DNA of 63,437 nucleotides, filler included, from Reclinomonas americana ATCC 50394 (lineage: Eukaryota): assembly GCA_048213135.1 (NCBI GenBank). It is 16 parts of 16 records of this genome, joined end to end, with 100 filler letters (N's around TTAATTAATTAA, not from the genome) between each part and the next. Parts side by side here need not be neighbours in the genome. Positions count along the whole stretch, not along the records: positions 41,186 to 44,878 come from AFZH01018464.1; positions 44,979 to 46,171 come from AFZH01018466.1; positions 46,272 to 47,854 come from AFZH01018467.1; positions 47,955 to 49,342 come from AFZH01018468.1; positions 49,443 to 50,779 come from AFZH01018469.1; 11 more parts are not named here. One strand, 5' to 3'. The position numbers and the translations under genes were made by a program. Position 1 is the stretch's first letter. Every line of letters begins with the position of its first letter. This document shows, one piece after another, positions 42,350 to 50,631 of the stretch. Under the pieces are notes generated by a model, which was given only the letters and a program-made list of their open reading frames with translations, made no database searches and was not told the origin of the DNA.

Positions 42350-43456
42350 ATGTCCCTGGCTCCCTCTCCACTCACTCTCCTCCCCTCCAAGTGTATCACT
42401 GATCACACGGGCGCTGTGATGTGTGTCGCTGTCACTCCCGATGGCGCGCACATTATCTCTGGGAGTGCAGACAAGACAGTGCGCGTGTGGTCACTTGAGA
42501 GTGGAGCTGAGGTGCGACGACTGGAGGGACACACTCATTATGTGAACGCAGTCGCTGTCAGTCCCAATGGCCAGCACATCGTGAGTGGCAGTGCTGACCG
42601 TACGGTGCGAATGTGGTCGCTGGAGAGTGGAGAAGAAGTGCGTCTGTTGAAGGGACACACTGGAGAAGTGGTATCTGTGGCCATCACTCCCGACGGGGAG
42701 CTCGTTGTGAGTGGCAGCGTCGACGACACCGTGCGTGTGTGGTCGCTGGCGAATGGTGAGGAGATGCAACGGTTTGAGGGGCACACTGGGGGAGTGGAAT
42801 CTGTGGCCGTCACGCCGGATGGTCTCTACGTCGTCAGCGGAAGCCATGACAAGACAGTGCGGGTGTGGTCACTGGAGAATGGCGCAGAAGTGCGCCGGTT
42901 TGAAGGACACAATAATTGGGTGCTGTCGGTTGCCATTACACCCGATGGTCAGCACATTGTGAGTTGCAGTCCCGCCGAGACTATGAGAGTGTGGTCGATG
43001 GCGACTGGGAAGGAAGTGCGACGGTTTGAGGGACACACTAGTAACAAGTTGCACGTCTCCGTCACCCCCGACGGTGAGCACGTCGTGGGTGGAGGCAACG
43101 GGTTTGACCCGATTGTGCGAGTGTGGTCACTGGCAAGTGGAAGAGAGGTGCGACAGCTGGAGGGACACAATGGAGGTGTGCGCTCTGTTGCCATCTCACC
43201 TGATGGTCAACATGTCGTGAGTGGTAGTTATGACAATACTTTGCGAGTGTGGTCCACTCCGTGTGGCCTCGCTGCGTTTGAGAGCTACACAGCACGGGCG
43301 ACGATGCGAGCTGTGCAGGAGATGCAGCGAGGAGCTGTCGTGGATGAAGAGCCGGATTCGCGGTGCCTGCCAGAGACTGTGCTGCGATGCTTCATCGCGG
43401 AGGAGGCGGCGGTGGTACTGCATCGGCGCAGCATTGATCCCGAGTCGCACTTGTGA
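42350..43456 (+). CDS. WD40 array copy 2: intact, intronless, 7 repeats plus conserved tail
   Basis: Conserved start MSLAPSPLTLLPSK, seven GH...TPDG...VRVW repeats, and a tail ending DPESHL*. Confidence 0.92.
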   Translation: MSLAPSPLTLLPSKCITDHTGAVMCVAVTPDGAHIISGSADKTVRVWSLESGAEVRRLEGHTHYVNAVAVSPNGQHIVSGSADRTVRMWSLESGEEVRLLKGHTGEVVSVAITPDGELVVSGSVDDTVRVWSLANGEEMQRFEGHTGGVESVAVTPDGLYVVSGSHDKTVRVWSLENGAEVRRFEGHNNWVLSVAITPDGQHIVSCSPAETMRVWSMATGKEVRRFEGHTSNKLHVSVTPDGEHVVGGGNGFDPIVRVWSLASGREVRQLEGHNGGVRSVAISPDGQHVVSGSYDNTLRVWSTPCGLAAFESYTARATMRAVQEMQRGAVVDEEPDSRCLPETVLRCFIAEEAAVVLHRRSIDPESHL

Positions 43457-43730
43457 AAATGGGAGGGACGAGAGAGTGAGAAAGAGTTTCGTTGTATTTT
43501 GTTGTTTCGGGTTTTTTTGTGATGACCCAAAGTGAACGAGTTGTGCCTGCTTGTTGATCCAGAGTGCACCCGCATTCGATGCAAGCAGTGTCAGGACTGC
43601 TGATGCGATACAGGTGTGATGCGCAAGGAACAAGTCCACCATCGTCCTGGTCCCACGCGCGCACACACGCACACACACGAACCCCAGAGTTTGATTGTTG
43701 CTTCTCCCTGTTCTCCTCTCTCCCTTCCTC

Positions 43731-44717
43731 ATGTCCTCCGCTCCCTCTCCACTCATCCTCCTCCCCTCCAAGCGCACCACCGGTCACACGGGCGCTGTGA
43801 TGTGCGTCGCCATCACTCCCGATGGTCAGCACGTCGTCAGTGGGGGTTCTGATCATTCAGTGCGTGTGTGCTCTTTGGCAACTGGAGCTGATGTGCGACG
43901 ACTGGAGGGACACACTGATTCGGTGCTGTGTGTTGCCGTGACTCCTGATGGCGAGCACATCGTGAGTGGCAGCTACGACCGGACGCTGCGAGTGTGGTCA
44001 CTGGAGAGTGGAGAGGAGGTGCGACGGTTGGAGAGACACACTTGGTGGGTGAACTCTGTCGCCATCACGTCGGATGGGCAGCACGTTGTCAGCGGAAGCA
44101 ATGACAAGACTGTGCGGGTGTGGTCACTGGAGAATGGCGCGGAAGTGCGACGACTGGAGGGTCACAAAGGTGGGGTGTGGTCGGTTGCCGTTACACCCGA
44201 TGGTCAGCACATTGTGAGTTGCAGTCCCGCCGATACTGTGCGAGTGTGGTCAATGGCGACAGGAGAAGAAGTGCATCGGTTTCAAGGACGCACTTACAGT
44301 ATGATTCACGTCTCCGTCACCCCCGACGGTAAGCACGTTGTAAGTGGAAGCAGCGCTGCTGACCCGATTGTGCGAGTGTGGTCACTGGCAAGTGGAAGAG
44401 AGGTGCGGCAGCTGGAGGGACACACTGGAAGTGTGCGCTCCGTTGCCGTTACTCCCGATGGTCGGCATGTTGTGAGTGGTAGTTATGACAGGACTGTACG
44501 AGTGTGGTCCACTCCCTGCGGCCTCGCTGCGCTTGAGCTCTGCACAGCGCGGGCGGCGATGCGGGCTGTGCAGGAGATGCAACGAGAAGCAATTGTTGAC
44601 GAAGATGAAGAACCAGGTTCGCGGTGTTTGCCAGAGATGGTGCTGCGGTGCTTCATCGCGGAGGAGGCGGCGGCGGTGCTGCATCGGCGCAGCATGGACC
44701 CGGAGTCGCACTTGTGA
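43731..44717 (+). CDS. WD40 array copy 3: open frame, 6 repeats
   Basis: Same start and tail as copy 2, with one whole 42-aa repeat missing. Confidence 0.9.
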   Translation: MSSAPSPLILLPSKRTTGHTGAVMCVAITPDGQHVVSGGSDHSVRVCSLATGADVRRLEGHTDSVLCVAVTPDGEHIVSGSYDRTLRVWSLESGEEVRRLERHTWWVNSVAITSDGQHVVSGSNDKTVRVWSLENGAEVRRLEGHKGGVWSVAVTPDGQHIVSCSPADTVRVWSMATGEEVHRFQGRTYSMIHVSVTPDGKHVVSGSSAADPIVRVWSLASGREVRQLEGHTGSVRSVAVTPDGRHVVSGSYDRTVRVWSTPCGLAALELCTARAAMRAVQEMQREAIVDEDEEPGSRCLPEMVLRCFIAEEAAAVLHRRSMDPESHL

Positions 44718-48075: not shown

Positions 48076-49187
48076 ATGTCCCTCACTCCCTCTCCACTCA
48101 CGCTCCTGCTCTCTAAGCGCATCACTGGTCACACTAGCCCCGTGCCTTGCGTCGCCATCACTCCCAATGGTGAGCACATTGTATCTGGGAGTACGGACTC
48201 CACAGTGCGAGTGTGGTCTCTGGCGACTGGAGCTGAGGTACGACGACTGAAGGGACATGAGGGTTTTGTGATCTCTGTTGCCGTCACTCCCAATGGCCAG
48301 CACATCGTGAGTGGCAGTTCTGACCGTTCAGTGCGAGTGTGGTCACTTGAGAGTGGAGAAGAAGTGCGACGGTTGCACGGGCATACTGGATGGGTGATTG
48401 CTGTTGCCGTCACTCCCGACGCGGTTCACATTGTAAGCGGGAGCGGGACTGCACTGTGCGTGTGTGGTCGATGGCGAGTGGGGAGGAGGTGAGGCGGTTT
48501 GAGGGGCACACTGGGGGAGTGAACTCTGTCGCCATCACGCCGGATTGTCTCCACGTTGTCAGCGGGAGTGGCAATGGGGCAGTGCGAGTGTGGTCGCTTG
48601 CAACAGGAGCAGAAGTGCGACGGCTGAAAGGACACAAAGGTTGGGTGGTCTCTGTTGCCATTACACCCGATTGTCAGCACATTGTGAGTTGCAGTCACGA
48701 CAAGACTATGAGAGTGTGGTCGATGACGACTGGCAAGGAAGTGCAACGGTTTGAAGGACACACTCGTAACAAGATGCACGTCTCCGTCACCCCCGACGGT
48801 GAGCACGTTATGAGTGGAGGCAACGGATGTGACCCGATTGTGCGAGTGTGGTCACTGGCAAGTGGAAGAGAGGTGCGACAGTTGAAGGGACACAATGGAT
48901 ATGTGCGTTCTGTTGCCGTGTCTCTCGATGGTCGGCATGTTGTGAGTGGTAGTTATGACAGGATCTTGCGAGTGTGGTCCACTCCTTGTGGCCTCGCTGC
49001 GCTTGAGGTTGATACAGCACGCAAGACAATGCGAGCCGTGCAGGAGATGCTGCGAGAAGCTGTCGCTGACGAAGATGAAGAAGCAGATTCGCGGTGCCTG
49101 CCAGAAATGGTGCTGCGGTGCTTCATTGTGGAGGAGGCGGCGGTGGTGCTGCGCGTACGCAGCATGGACCCGGAGTCGCACTTGTGA
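48076..49187 (+). pseudogene. WD40 array copy 6, frameshift near 48445
   Basis: agcgggagcgggactgc is one base shorter than agcgggagcagggac in copy 5, so the product is split over two ORFs. A sequencing error cannot be excluded. Confidence 0.75.
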
Positions 49188-49528
49188 GAGGAAAGGAGAG
49201 AGAAAGGGATGAGAGAAGAGAGAAAGAGTTGCCTTTTTCCGCTGTCATCGATCAAATGAACGCTGCGTGTTGTGTTATGTGCCTTGTTGATGATCCATGG
49301 CCAAAGTGAACGTACATTCGATTAGCTGCTGCTCGTTGCGGTNNNNNNNNNNNNNNNNNNNNNNNNNNNNNNNNNNNNNNNNNNNNTTAATTAATTAANN
49401 NNNNNNNNNNNNNNNNNNNNNNNNNNNNNNNNNNNNNNNNNNCGACAGTCGAGTTGTATTGTCTCCTCTCTCTCTCTCTCTATCTCTCTCTCTCTCTCTC
49501 TCTGCTCTCCTCTCTCTCCCCCATCATC

Positions 49529-50631
49529 ATGTCCACCACTCCCTCTCCCCTCACTCTCCTCCCCTCCAAGCGCATCACGGGTCACACTTTTCTTGTGATG
49601 TGCGTCGCCATCACTCCCAATGGTGAGCACATCATCTCTGGGAGTGCAGACACGACAGTGCGCGTGTGGTCTCTGCGGACTGGGGCTGAGGTGCGACGAC
49701 TGGAGGGACACGCGCTTCAAGTGCACTCTGTCGCCGTGACTCCCAATGGCCAGCACATCGTGAGTGGCAGCTTCGACCGCACGTTGCGAGTGTGGTCACT
49801 GGAAAGTGGAGAAGAAGTGCGTCTGTTGAAGGGGCACGCTGAGGTAGTGCAATGTGTTGTCATCACTCCCGATGGGGAGCACGTTGTCAGCGGGAGTTGG
49901 GATGCGACAGTGCGTGTGTGGTCGCTGGCGTCGGGGCAGGAGGTACGACGAATGGAGGAGCACACCAGGGAAGTGAACTCTGTCGCCATCACGCCGGATG
50001 GTCTCTACGTCGTCAGCGGAAGCCATGACAAGACAGTGCGAGTGTGGTCAATGGAGACTGGCGCTGAAGTGCGCCGGTTTGAAGGACACAATAATTGGGT
50101 GCTGTCGGTTGCCATTACACTCGATAGTCAGCACATCGTGAGTTGCAGTCACGACGGGACCATGAGAGTGTGGTCAATGACGACTGGCAAGGAAGTACGA
50201 CGGTTTGAGGGACATACTCTTGACACGATTCGCATCTCCATCACCCCCGACGGTGAGCACGTTATGAGTGGAGGTAATTTAATCCGGTTGTGCGAGTGTG
50301 GTCACTGGCAAGTGGAAGAGAGGTGCTACAGCTTGAGGGACACACTGGAGGTGTGCGCGCTGTGGCCGTGACTCCCGATGGTTTGCATGTCGTGAGTGGT
50401 GGTTATGACAACACTTTGCGAGTGTGGTCCACTCCCTGCGGCCTCGCTGCGTTTGAGGTTGATACAGCACGAGCGGCGATGCGGGCTGTGCAGGAGATGC
50501 AGCGAGGAGCTGTCGTGGATGAAGAAGCAGATTCGCGGTGCCTGCCAGAGATGGTGCTGCGGTGCTTCATTGTGGAGGAAGCGACGGCTGTGCTGCACCG
50601 ACGCAGCATGGAACCGGAGTCGCACTTGTAA
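49529..50631 (+). pseudogene. WD40 array copy 7, frameshift near 50280
   Basis: The repeat-6 loop ggaggtaatttaatccggtt is 4 nt shorter than in other copies, splitting the product over two ORFs. Confidence 0.75.

What the first reader, a model, noticed from the sequence alone, without database searches (positions are those of the whole stretch)
42350..50420. WD40 copies are mosaics: segment shuffling and whole-repeat loss
Seen: variant blocks are shared in incompatible patterns. Copies 2+7 share FEGHNNWVLSVAIT. Copies 5+6 share SGSGNGAVRVWSLATG and HTRNKMH. Copies 1+3 share HKGGV and TYxMIH. Copies 2+3 share TGAVMC and SCSPA. Copies 3+5 share HTDSVL and AADPI. Copies 4+7 share HTREVN. Copies 1+7 share SGSFDRTL and SCSHDGT. 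Copy 3 lacks exactly one repeat. Inference: gene conversion and unequal crossover recombine binding surfaces, with broken copies possibly acting as donors.
Basis: partly seen in the sequence, partly recalled or inferred. Interest (0 to 1): 0.72.

Follow-up and report, generated by a model that had tools for sequence, protein, structure and literature searches.

The report
Recombining array of WD40 propeller genes
A cluster of related genes for small ring-shaped WD40 binding proteins in an unidentified protist has swapped short DNA patches between copies and lost one whole repeat in one copy, a familiar way for multigene families to vary, though it rests here on a fragmented assembly.

Summary
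All 12 of 12 motif pairs occur only in the named copies, at the same alignment columns, with 0-2 nt differences. Copy 3 lacks exactly 126 nt, one blade.

The sharing exceeds chance. My PHI test gives p=0.0002, and p=0.009 on third codon positions alone. None of 300 single-tree simulations comes near the real value. Per-blade trees reject each other. The shared tracts carry no synonymous differences.

The best reading is short, in-register gene conversion among paralogous stand-alone seven-bladed WD40 genes, plus one blade deletion.

Three corrections apply:
- Blades are never exchanged between positions; 44 of 44 cluster by position. This is unlike the concerted evolution of Podospora HNWD repeats.
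- The window is 16 contigs joined by artificial linkers, so only copies 1b-2-3 are shown to be adjacent.
- No reads could be obtained, so assembly phase switches and allelic copies are not excluded.

The direction of exchange ("broken copies as donors") cannot be tested here. Earlier notes of this scan report similar arrays elsewhere in this genome.

The process is a known kind, so interest is moderate.

The parts
40136..40512 (+). Copy 1a. It holds the start codon, blades 1-2 and most of blade 3, then homology decays into CT-rich sequence. It lies on contig A (36096-41085).
   Evidence: It shares a 52-nt identical tract with copy 2 (40241-40292 = 42455-42506).
41288..42028 (+). Copy 1b. It is 5'-truncated, running from the end of blade 3 to the stop codon, and is preceded by a CT-rich stretch at the start of contig B (41186-44878).
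42350..43456 (+). Copy 2. It is an intact ORF of 368 aa with seven WD40 blades and a 67-aa tail predicted as helical.
   Evidence: Pfam finds 7 WD40 stretches. The AlphaFold2 model has mean pLDDT 84.6, 28 strands and 2 C-terminal helices.
43731..44717 (+). Copy 3. It is an open ORF of 328 aa with six blades. Exactly 126 nt (blade 3) are missing, with the junction at 44013|44014.
   Evidence: The AlphaFold2 model is less confident (pLDDT 75.7) and the N-terminal closing strand is not formed.
44979..45871 (+). Copy 4. Its 5' end is cut by the start of contig C, inside blade 2. It has in-frame indels: -3 after 45414, +6 at 45594-45599, -3 after 45659 and -21 after 45756.
46458..47546 (+). Copy 5. 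It is an intact ORF of 362 aa with seven blades and lies alone on contig D (46272-47854).
48076..49187 (+). Copy 6. It has seven blades but a 1-nt deletion after 48444 (in blade 3) that shifts the frame. It lies alone on contig E.
   Evidence: It shares 96-nt and 83-nt identical tracts with copy 5 (48727-48822 = 47107-47202; 48553-48635 = 46933-47015).
49529..50631 (+). Copy 7. It has seven blades but a 4-nt deletion after 50278 (in blade 6) that shifts the frame. It lies alone on contig F.
   Evidence: It shares a 55-nt tract with copy 2 (50066-50120 = 42887-42941) and a 60-nt tract with copy 5 (50536-50595 = 47451-47510).
44879..44978 (.). One of the artificial contig linkers (N44 + TTAATTAATTAA + N44). 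Others near the array lie at 41086-41185, 46172-46271, 47855-47954, 49343-49442 and 50780-50879.
46070..46386 (.). (AC)50 and (AC)53 microsatellites on either side of a linker in an intergenic spacer. Contigs C, D and E break at such tracts; (AC)23 tracts also lie at 47775-47820 and 47962-48007.

Best explanation
The region holds a family of intronless genes. Each encodes a stand-alone seven-bladed WD40 propeller followed by a lineage-restricted tail predicted as two helices. At least three copies are in direct tandem.

The copies are old duplicates: synonymous divergence in the framework is about 0.3, and per-blade DNA identity is 70-93%. Short patches of tens of bases, up to about 100, have been copied between copies in register, from blade n of one gene to blade n of another. 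This is non-allelic (interlocus) gene conversion or double crossover during recombinational repair.

Because the patches include the most variable codons, each event re-assorts pieces of the presumed binding face. These codons are the pair flanking the conserved V of strand A and the pair flanking the conserved D of the B-C turn. One copy additionally lost one 126-nt blade through misaligned exchange or slippage between the similar 3' ends of blades 2 and 3.

Shown: the mosaic pattern, its statistical excess, its identity at synonymous sites, the in-register restriction and the exact blade loss.

Inferred: the molecular mechanism, that the variable codons form a binding face, that all pieces belong to one haploid genome, and any adaptive role.
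For: 1. The nearest neighbour of a copy changes from blade to blade. For copy 2 it is c1a, c1a, c4, c4, c7, c7, c6, c1b, c3 along Nt, B1-B7 and the tail.
2. PHI (my own implementation, site permutation):
   - 7 sequences, columns 410-1119, 129 informative sites: z=-6.6, p=0.0002.
   - Third codon positions only: p=0.009.
   - N-terminal part, 6 sequences: p=0.0002.
3. Simulation on the single best tree, keeping each site's rate in place. 0 of 300 alignments reached z below -2.5, against the real -5.1. 3, 4 and 7 of 100 had p<=0.05, so the test is calibrated. The real fraction of incompatible site pairs is 0.44, against simulated means of 0.31-0.38.
4. Longest-run tests. c5-c6 (37 variable sites, 91 nt) and c1a-c2 (24 sites, 51 nt) are globally significant by permutation. 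In the parametric bootstrap the observed run was reached in 1, 2, 5 and 1 of 300 simulations for c5-c6, c2-c7, c5-c7 and c1b-c4.
5. AU tests:
   - Blade 4 data reject the blade 5 and blade 6 trees (p=0.0016, 0.0005).
   - Blade 5 rejects blades 4 and 7.
   - Blade 6 rejects blades 4 and 7.
   - The tail rejects blades 4, 5 and 6.
6. In the five longest tracts the sharing pair has 0 differences, while every one of the other 14-20 pairs has at least 1 synonymous-codon difference and at least 3 differences in total.
7. In the quartet c1b, c2, c3, c7, blade 5 shows:
   - 9 sites for (c2,c7) in columns 538-592.
   - 3 sites for (c2,c3) in columns 593-633.
   - 10 sites for (c2,c7) again in columns 634-760.
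8. The 3' flanks group as (c1b,c3,c6) and (c2,c7)/(c4,c5). The adjoining coding tail groups as c5, c6, c7.
9. Copies c1b, c2 and c3 lie on one contig, so they are paralogues.
Against: - No read-level or independent-assembly check was possible, and no whole genome is held. The linkage of segments on either side of shared tracts rests on one fragmented assembly.
- Copies 4-7 each sit on their own 1.2-1.6 kb contig, so they could be alleles or come from a mixed culture.
- With about 18% divergence, homologous exchange between these very copies should be inefficient. Donors may therefore be unsampled copies.
- First plus second codon positions alone give PHI p=0.09.
- Blade 7 data reject none of the six candidate trees.
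- 16 of 21 pairs show no run excess.
- 7 of the 12 reader motifs differ from a third copy by only 1-3 nt.
- The tests are my own implementations on 4-7 sequences, not the published programs.
Confidence: 0.68

Rival explanations
1. Assembly artefact. The short tracts shared by several copies are real, but the assembler switched between copies at those tracts. On this reading the segment combinations, and perhaps the frameshifts and the blade loss, do not exist in the genome.
For: - The window is 16 contigs joined by linkers.
- Contigs B and E stop at homologous points of the 3' flank, and C, D and E stop at (AC)n tracts. This shows that the assembler struggled here.
- Identical tracts of 37-96 nt exist at which a path could switch.
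Against: - Copies differ by 7-30% per blade, which is too much for reads of different copies to be merged.
- Sharing of short identical tracts inside divergent background does not depend on how the flanks are linked.
- Incongruence is also seen among c1b, c2 and c3, which lie on one contig.
- Breaks fall mostly at microsatellites and spacers, not inside the propeller.
Confidence: 0.12
2. Allelic rather than paralogous exchange. Some single-copy contigs are divergent haplotypes, or come from different strains of a culture, of the same loci. The mosaics would then come from ordinary meiotic recombination at a highly polymorphic locus.
For: - Copies 4-7 are each alone on a contig, and their order is not established.
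- The end of contig D and the start of contig E carry similar but not identical spacer sequence, so they are not simply adjacent.
Against: - Three copies are demonstrably tandem on contig B and take part in the mosaics.
- No two copies are closer than about 74% agreement at variable sites.
- Their flanks fall into different types.
Confidence: 0.1
3. No recombination. Parallel or convergent substitutions at a few selected surface codons, together with rate variation along the gene, imitate mosaics.
For: - Variable codons are few and clustered.
- Several reader motifs rest on 1-3 nucleotides.
- One protein-level similarity (SLATGAEVRRLKGH at the end of blade 1 and of blade 4 in copy 6) uses different codons. 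This is seen in the alignment, so convergence on protein sequence does occur here.
Against: - Third positions alone give PHI p=0.009.
- The shared tracts have zero synonymous differences, where all other pairs have some.
- Single-tree simulations with site rates kept in place never approach the observed statistic (0 of 300).
Confidence: 0.04

Closest known systems
[quoted passage not shown] Sources: Paoletti et al. 2007, PMC1805685 (abstract and sections 7 and 9 read); Chevanne et al. 2010, PMC2873952 (abstract read); Genome Biol Evol 2026, PMC13449251 (passages read).
   Same: - Regular WD40 blades have variation concentrated in pairs of codons that flank a conserved residue. In Podospora these are codons 7/9 and 25/27 around 8 and 26. 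Here they are the codons around the conserved V and D.
- DNA is exchanged between family members.
- Whole 126-nt repeats are lost.
- Defective family members take part in exchange.
   Different: - The proteins here are stand-alone propellers of about 365 aa with a helical tail. There is no NACHT NTPase and no effector domain.
- Blades of one gene are only about 64% identical in DNA and about 60% in protein. In Podospora they are 80-100% identical.
- Blades cluster by position (44 of 44), not by gene or species. There is therefore no concerted evolution of repeats, and exchange occurs only in register.
- The genes are arrayed in tandem, whereas the het loci are unlinked.
Interlocus gene conversion in tandem multigene families such as plant NLR clusters, MHC and KIR genes. 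This is general knowledge recalled from memory; no paper was read.
   Same: Old paralogues in clusters carry short converted tracts. These produce phylogenetic incongruence along the gene and re-assort variable surface patches.
   Different: The protein fold and the lineage differ. No function, ligand or population data exist here.
Mosaic gene formation from silent or defective donor cassettes, as in trypanosome VSG, Neisseria pilS/pilE and chicken immunoglobulin pseudo-V genes. Recalled from memory; no paper was read.
   Same: Short patches are shared between intact and defective copies of an array.
   Different: - There is no sign of a single expression site.
- The 'defective' copies keep their start codon, 5' flank and full length, with only a 1-nt or 4-nt deletion.
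- Directionality and somatic variation could not be tested.
Recombining array of exported WD40 genes in a Poribacteria genome (scan note e1-4947236; not checked here).
   Same: Neighbouring WD40 genes are reported to trade short DNA patches.
   Different: That case is bacterial, with double propellers carrying signal peptides. I did not examine it.

Membership tests
WD40 beta-propeller (Pfam PF00400) | Seven (or six to eight) WD40 repeats that form a closed propeller. | tested here: met
   Pfam finds 7 stretches in copies 2 and 5 and 6 in copy 3. The AlphaFold2 model of copy 2 has 28 strands and mean pLDDT 84.6.
Fungal HNWD/NWD high-internal-conservation WD40 sensors | The WD40 array is fused to a NACHT NTPase and an N-terminal effector domain. 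| tested here: not met
   The ORFs of 362-368 aa are filled by a 17-aa N-terminus, seven blades and a 67-aa tail. The 25 Pfam families shown of 50-57 matched per protein are all WD40/propeller models. The rows not shown were not seen.
Fungal HNWD/NWD high-internal-conservation WD40 sensors | Repeats within a gene are 80-100% identical and cluster by gene or species (concerted evolution). | tested here: not met
   Blades at different positions are 63.8% identical in DNA within a copy and 63.6% between copies. 44 of 44 blades have their nearest neighbour at the same position. Protein identity between positions is 59.5%.
Fungal HNWD/NWD high-internal-conservation WD40 sensors | Hypervariable codon pairs flank conserved residues on the interaction face. 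| tested here: inconclusive
   The most variable columns are those around the conserved V and D of each blade. Their dN (0.51) exceeds framework dS (0.31) in 19 of 21 pairs. However, the codons were chosen for being variable, and their position on the top face is taken from the literature, not measured on the model.
Interlocus (non-allelic) gene conversion in a tandem family | The participants are paralogues in one genome. | tested here: inconclusive
   c1b, c2 and c3 are on one contig. c1a, c4, c5, c6 and c7 are on other contigs joined only by linkers.
Interlocus (non-allelic) gene conversion in a tandem family | There are significant local clustering of shared variants and incongruent trees along the gene, including at synonymous sites. 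| tested here: met
Interlocus (non-allelic) gene conversion in a tandem family | Transfer is non-reciprocal and directional, from a donor to an acceptor. | not testable with these tools
   This needs an outgroup, population samples or pedigrees, and none are available.
Cassette-donor antigenic-variation-type systems | One expressed site and silent truncated donors, with variants arising somatically. | not testable with these tools
   No reads or RNA data could be obtained. The structure of the copies, which are full length with their own 5' flanks, does not suggest this arrangement.

The most novel reading that the evidence does not exclude
The arrays form a standing cassette library for a receptor-like repertoire that lacks any NTPase engine. 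Short in-register conversion, possibly helped by the (AC)n spacers and drawing on defective copies as well, would keep re-assorting the two variable patches of each blade. A free-living protist lineage would thus maintain, and perhaps renew within populations, a combinatorial set of stand-alone WD40 binders docked to a common partner through the conserved tail. The only database relative of that tail is a Reclinomonas americana EST product.
Probability: 0.1. Interest if true: 0.8.

Novelty: new member of a known kind. Interest (0 to 1): 0.4.

Why it matters
If the copies are validated, this array shows that regular WD40 propellers can be diversified by in-register patch exchange between whole genes. 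In the fungal NLR paradigm, by contrast, repeats are homogenised and shuffled. The family has no NTPase domain, and its tail is almost absent from public protein databases: 1 real hit among 1.84 billion representatives.

The finding gives a concrete set of recombination tracts and variable positions for anyone who wants to test what these proteins bind. The process itself, gene conversion in a clustered family, is well known, so the value lies in the example and the lineage, not in a new principle.

Tried and rejected
- Whole genome: none is held for this window. Other arrays of this genome mentioned in scan notes could not be examined.
- Public sequencing runs for contig B: none was listed, and no RNA holder was listed.
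- Metagenome scan with the tail: 523 pattern matches, none confirmed by tblastn.
- Word-index search with copy 2: 3937 generic WD40 proteins among 8000 scored candidates. The 120 listed were 27-60% identical, so none is close.
- Tail searches: one real hit, P0122, a 116-aa Reclinomonas americana EST product in EukProt, 67% identical. P0123 (E=7e-4) is a low-complexity repeat protein that I discount. A second search with the P0122 tail found only P0122 itself.
- Gcp1-3 WD40 proteins of jakobids and heteroloboseans (PMC8134430, passages read). These are Pex7-like, and I saw nothing there about tandem hypervariable arrays. Not pursued.
- Pfam on flanking ORFs: only a sub-threshold Methyltransf_16 match upstream of copy 1a. 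My recalled resemblance of the exons after copy 1a to a phosducin-like or thioredoxin protein got only weak support (PDB 3evi_A, E=0.0094; thioredoxin, E about 1).
- Hudson-Kaplan Rm=41 from 207 biallelic sites. I reject this as a count of events because homoplasy at this divergence inflates it.
- Blade exchange between different positions was looked for and not found. The longest identical run is 23 nt and the best identity 75.6%.
- Paper searches found no description of such arrays in protists. This covers only the held library.

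
Full report
WHAT THE WINDOW IS

The 63,437-base window is not one continuous molecule. It holds 30 runs of exactly 44 N in 15 pairs, and each pair encloses TTAATTAATTAA. It is therefore 16 contigs joined by a 100-nt stop-codon linker.

The contigs around the finding are:
- A, 36096-41085
- B, 41186-44878
- C, 44979-46171
- D, 46272-47854
- E, 47955-49342
- F, 49443-50779

No whole genome is held. Contigs C, D and E end or begin in (AC)23-53 microsatellites. Contigs B and E end at homologous points of the 3' flank. The order and adjacency of the single-gene contigs are thus not shown by the sequence. 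The spacer at the end of D is similar to, but not the same as, that at the start of E, so at least one copy may be missing.

THE GENES

All WD40-type blades of the window lie on the + strand between 40136 and 50631. The pieces are:
- Two intact ORFs: copy 2 at 42350-43456 (368 aa) and copy 5 at 46458-47546 (362 aa).
- One open six-blade ORF: copy 3 at 43731-44717 (328 aa).
- Copy 4 at 44979-45871, cut at its 5' end by the contig start and carrying in-frame indels.
- Copy 6 at 48076-49187, with a 1-nt deletion after 48444.
- Copy 7 at 49529-50631, with a 4-nt deletion after 50278.

Pfam finds 7 WD40 stretches in copies 2 and 5 and 6 in copy 3. The AlphaFold2 model of copy 2, built on an alignment of the 8 pieces, is a seven-bladed propeller. 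It has 28 strands, mean pLDDT 84.6 and pTM 0.81. An N-terminal strand closes the ring, and two low-confidence C-terminal helices follow.

Each copy has its own start codon behind a CT-rich stretch. All seven sequenced 3' ends stop at the same point, six with TGA and copy 7 with TAA. These are therefore separate, intronless genes.

RELATIVES

A word-index search with copy 2 returned only generic WD40 proteins. 3937 of 8000 scored candidates had E<=0.001, and the 120 listed were 27-60% identical.

The 67-aa tail has 2 hits among 1.84 billion representatives:
- P0122, a 116-aa fragment, 67% identical (E=5e-17). EukProt names it as an EST-derived ORF of Reclinomonas americana.
- P0123, a repeat protein that I discount.

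A second search with the P0122 tail found only P0122 itself, and a metagenome scan found nothing. The family is therefore close to absent from public protein sets. A relative is transcribed in a jakobid. That the window comes from a jakobid-like protist is an inference only.

Notes of this scan, which I did not check, report further arrays of at least 10 and at least 11 such genes on other pieces of this genome (e1-7447755, e1-7449139). They also describe the genome as intron-dense (e1-7385391).

CHECKING THE OBSERVATION

I aligned the coding DNA of the 8 pieces (1119 columns, few indels). The DNA differences within each pair are 0 nt for 6 motifs, 1 nt for 5 and 2 nt for 1.

Five motifs differ from every other copy by at least 4 nt. 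FEGHNNWVLSVAIT differs by at least 9, and SGSGNGAVRVWSLATG by at least 17. The other seven are 1-3 nt from a third copy and mean little on their own.

The longest exact shared tracts are:
- 96 and 83 nt (c5-c6)
- 60 nt (c5-c7)
- 55 nt (c2-c7)
- 52 nt (c1a-c2 and c2-c6)
- 43 nt (c2-c3)
- 41 nt (c1b-c5)
- 37 nt (c1b-c4)

Copy 3 lacks exactly columns 284-409, 126 nt or one blade. The junction lies in the similar 3' ends of blades 2 and 3.

IS IT MORE THAN CHANCE?

Per-blade DNA identity between copies is 70-93%, and the nearest neighbour changes along the gene. For copy 2 it runs c1a, c1a, c4, c4, c7, c7, c6, c1b, c3.

PHI test. This is my own implementation with 5000 site permutations, gap columns dropped.

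| Data set | Result |
|---|---|
| 7 sequences, columns 410-1119, 129 informative sites | z=-6.6, p=0.0002 |
| Same, third codon positions only | p=0.009 |
| Same, first and second positions only | p=0.09 |
| 6 sequences, N-terminus to blade 2 | p=0.0002 |
| 4 full-length copies | p=0.003 |
| 5 copies, blade 2 to the end | p=0.0002 |
| Without c1b | p=0.0006 |

Null simulation. I simulated alignments on the single best tree with HKY and each site's estimated rate kept at its position, at three tree scalings, 100 replicates each.
- 3, 4 and 7 replicates had p<=0.05, and none had p<=0.01.
- The lowest simulated z was -2.46, against -5.1 for the real data over the same columns.
- The real share of incompatible site pairs is 0.44. 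The simulated means are 0.31-0.38, with maxima of 0.378, 0.430 and 0.443 at tree scales 1.0, 1.5 and 2.0.

Run test in the manner of GENECONV.
- By permutation, c5-c6 (37 consecutive variable sites, 91 nt, global p=0.0005) and c1a-c2 (24 sites, 51 nt, global p=0.0015) are significant. Pairwise p is below 0.01 for c1b-c5, c2-c7, c1b-c4, c5-c7 and c2-c3.
- In the parametric bootstrap the observed run was reached in 1, 2, 5 and 1 of 300 simulations for c5-c6, c2-c7, c5-c7 and c1b-c4. 16 of 21 pairs show no excess.

Trees. Maximum-likelihood trees per segment differ, and AU tests reject several of them.
- Blade 4 data reject the blade 5 and blade 6 trees (p=0.0016, 0.0005).
- Blade 5 rejects blades 4 and 7 (0.033, 0.011).
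- Blade 6 rejects blades 4 and 7 (0.046, 0.0019).
- The tail rejects blades 4, 5 and 6 (0.034, 0.0036, 0.0022).
- Blade 7 rejects none.

CONVERGENCE OR COMMON DESCENT OF THE TRACTS?

In the five longest tracts the sharing pair has no difference at all. Every one of the other 14-20 pairs has at least 1 difference between synonymous codons and at least 3 differences in total. Together with the third-position PHI result, this argues against parallel amino-acid change.

Convergence at protein level does occur elsewhere. The ends of blade 1 and blade 4 of copy 6 spell the same 14 residues with different codons (alignment). Motif sharing at protein level alone would therefore not have been enough.

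WHAT KIND OF EXCHANGE?

I compared 44 blades with each other. Pieces with more than 12 gap columns were left out.

| Blade comparison | Mean DNA identity | Pairs |
|---|---|---|
| Same position, different copies | 82.4% | 119 |
| Different positions, same copy | 63.8% | 119 |
| Different positions, different copies | 63.6% | 708 |

The nearest neighbour is at the same position for 44 of 44 blades. The longest identical run between positions is 23 nt.

Protein identity between positions is 59.5% (48 pairs). This uses the 42 of 44 blades that translate cleanly, with blade 6 excluded for its length.

There is thus no homogenisation of blades within a gene and no shuffling of blades between positions. 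Exchange is in register between genes.

A clear case lies in blade 5 among c1b, c2, c3 and c7:
- 9 sites support (c2,c7) in columns 538-592.
- 3 sites support (c2,c3) in columns 593-633.
- 10 sites support (c2,c7) again in columns 634-760.

All four combinations of the two variable patches exist, and c2 and c3 are neighbours on contig B.

The mosaic reaches the flanks. The 3' flanks pair c1b-c3 (77%), c3-c6 (80%), c2-c7 (81%) and c4-c5 (84%), against 49-75% for the other pairs. The adjoining coding tail pairs c5-c6 (91.7%) and c5-c7 (91.0%).

WHERE THE VARIATION SITS

Across copies, the columns with most residues are those just after GH, those on both sides of the conserved V of strand A, and those on both sides of the conserved D of SGSxDxT. 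Paoletti et al. 2007 describe the same arrangement in Podospora: selected codons 7/9 and 25/27 around constrained codons 8 and 26, on the interaction face (section 9 read).

Nei-Gojobori estimates over 21 pairs:
- dN=0.51 for my 58 'variable' codons.
- dS=0.31 and dN=0.09 for the 238 framework codons.
- Variable-codon dN exceeds framework dS in 19 of 21 pairs.

The variable codons were picked for being variable, so this is only suggestive of diversifying selection. Framework dN/dS is 0.20-0.44 for all pairs, those with copies 6 and 7 included. Their frameshifts are therefore recent, or they are sequencing errors.

THE SIX-BLADE COPY

The AlphaFold2 model of copy 3 is less confident (pLDDT 75.7, pTM 0.73). 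Its first 15 residues are below pLDDT 50, and the N-terminal strand seen in copy 2 is missing. This is a weak hint that ring closure is disturbed. It is not evidence that the protein fails to fold.

INTERPRETATION

The best-supported reading is non-allelic gene conversion, or equivalent short double exchanges, in register among old paralogues of a clustered family, plus one misaligned exchange or slippage that removed a blade.

The steps stand as follows:
- Shown: the pattern, its excess over chance, the synonymous identity of the tracts, the in-register restriction and the exact deletion.
- Inferred: the mechanism, that the variable codons form a binding face, and that all pieces belong to one haploid genome.
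Broken and intact copies do share the longest tracts (c5-c6, c2-c7, c1a-c2).

At about 18% divergence, exchange between these very copies should be rare. Closer donors may sit in the unsampled arrays.

RIVALS

- Assembly phase switching cannot be excluded, because no run was listed. It would not create the shared tracts themselves, and the copies are too divergent to be merged.
- Allelic copies are possible for contigs C-F but not for c1b-c2-c3.
- Convergence is disfavoured.

COMPARISON AND NOVELTY

The nearest described system is the Podospora HNWD/NWD WD40 domain (PMC1805685, PMC2873952, PMC13449251).

The two share regular blades, paired variable codons, exchange between family members and repeat loss.

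This family differs in four ways:
- It has no NACHT or effector domain.
- It has low internal conservation.
- Its blades cluster by position.
- Its genes are arranged in tandem.

It works partly like that system but is not a member of it. Gene conversion in clustered recognition-type families is otherwise well known (recalled). My four searches of the held library found no paper on such arrays in protists. I rate the mosaic process as a new member of a known kind and its interest as moderate. The family itself is the more unusual thing, and it is the subject of other notes of this scan.

Noticed in passing
whole window; linkers at e.g. 11101-11200, 44879-44978, 61502-61601: The window is a chain of 16 contigs joined by identical 100-nt linkers (44 N, TTAATTAATTAA, 44 N). 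Any reading that relies on the order or adjacency of features across these points is unsafe.
   Followed up: yes
43445-43456, 44706-44717, 47535-47546, 49176-49187, 50620-50631, 42017-42028, 45860-45871: Six of the seven sequenced C-termini end in -SHL, and copy 4 ends in -SHV. -SHL fits the recalled [SAC][KRH][LM] pattern of a type 1 peroxisomal targeting signal. The Reclinomonas relative P0122 ends in -MYL, so the signal, if it is one, is not conserved.
   Followed up: no
40513-41085 (contig A, after copy 1a): Copy 1a runs into about 170 nt of CT-rich sequence. Two short open stretches follow that weakly resemble a thioredoxin-fold or phosducin-like protein (PDB 3evi_A, E=0.0094; thioredoxin, E about 1; no Pfam hit). 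Copy 1a may be a fragment at the edge of the array next to an unrelated gene.
   Followed up: partly
46070-46169, 46281-46386, 47775-47820, 47962-48007: Long (AC)n microsatellites of 23 to 53 units sit in the spacers between WD40 genes, and contigs break there. Such tracts are reported to stimulate recombination (recalled, not checked), so they could matter for exchange in the array.
   Followed up: no
41186-41287 and 40513-40690: The 5'-truncated copy 1b is preceded by a pyrimidine-rich stretch that ends in CAG, like the 3' end of an intron. About 30 nt of blade 3 (from AGGGA to GGTCGC) are present in decayed form at the end of c1a and intact at the start of c1b. The two pieces are therefore not simply one gene split by a gap.
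   Followed up: partly
48205-48260 and 48582-48640 (copy 6, ends of blade 1 and blade 4): The same 14 residues (SLATGAEVRRLKGH) end blades 1 and 4 of copy 6 but are written with different codons. This is protein-level convergence or constraint, not DNA exchange.
   Followed up: partly
36444-37088 (+): An open stretch upstream of the array has a sub-threshold match to Pfam Methyltransf_16, lysine methyltransferase (E=0.00049, 20.3 bits against a cut-off of 21).
   Followed up: no
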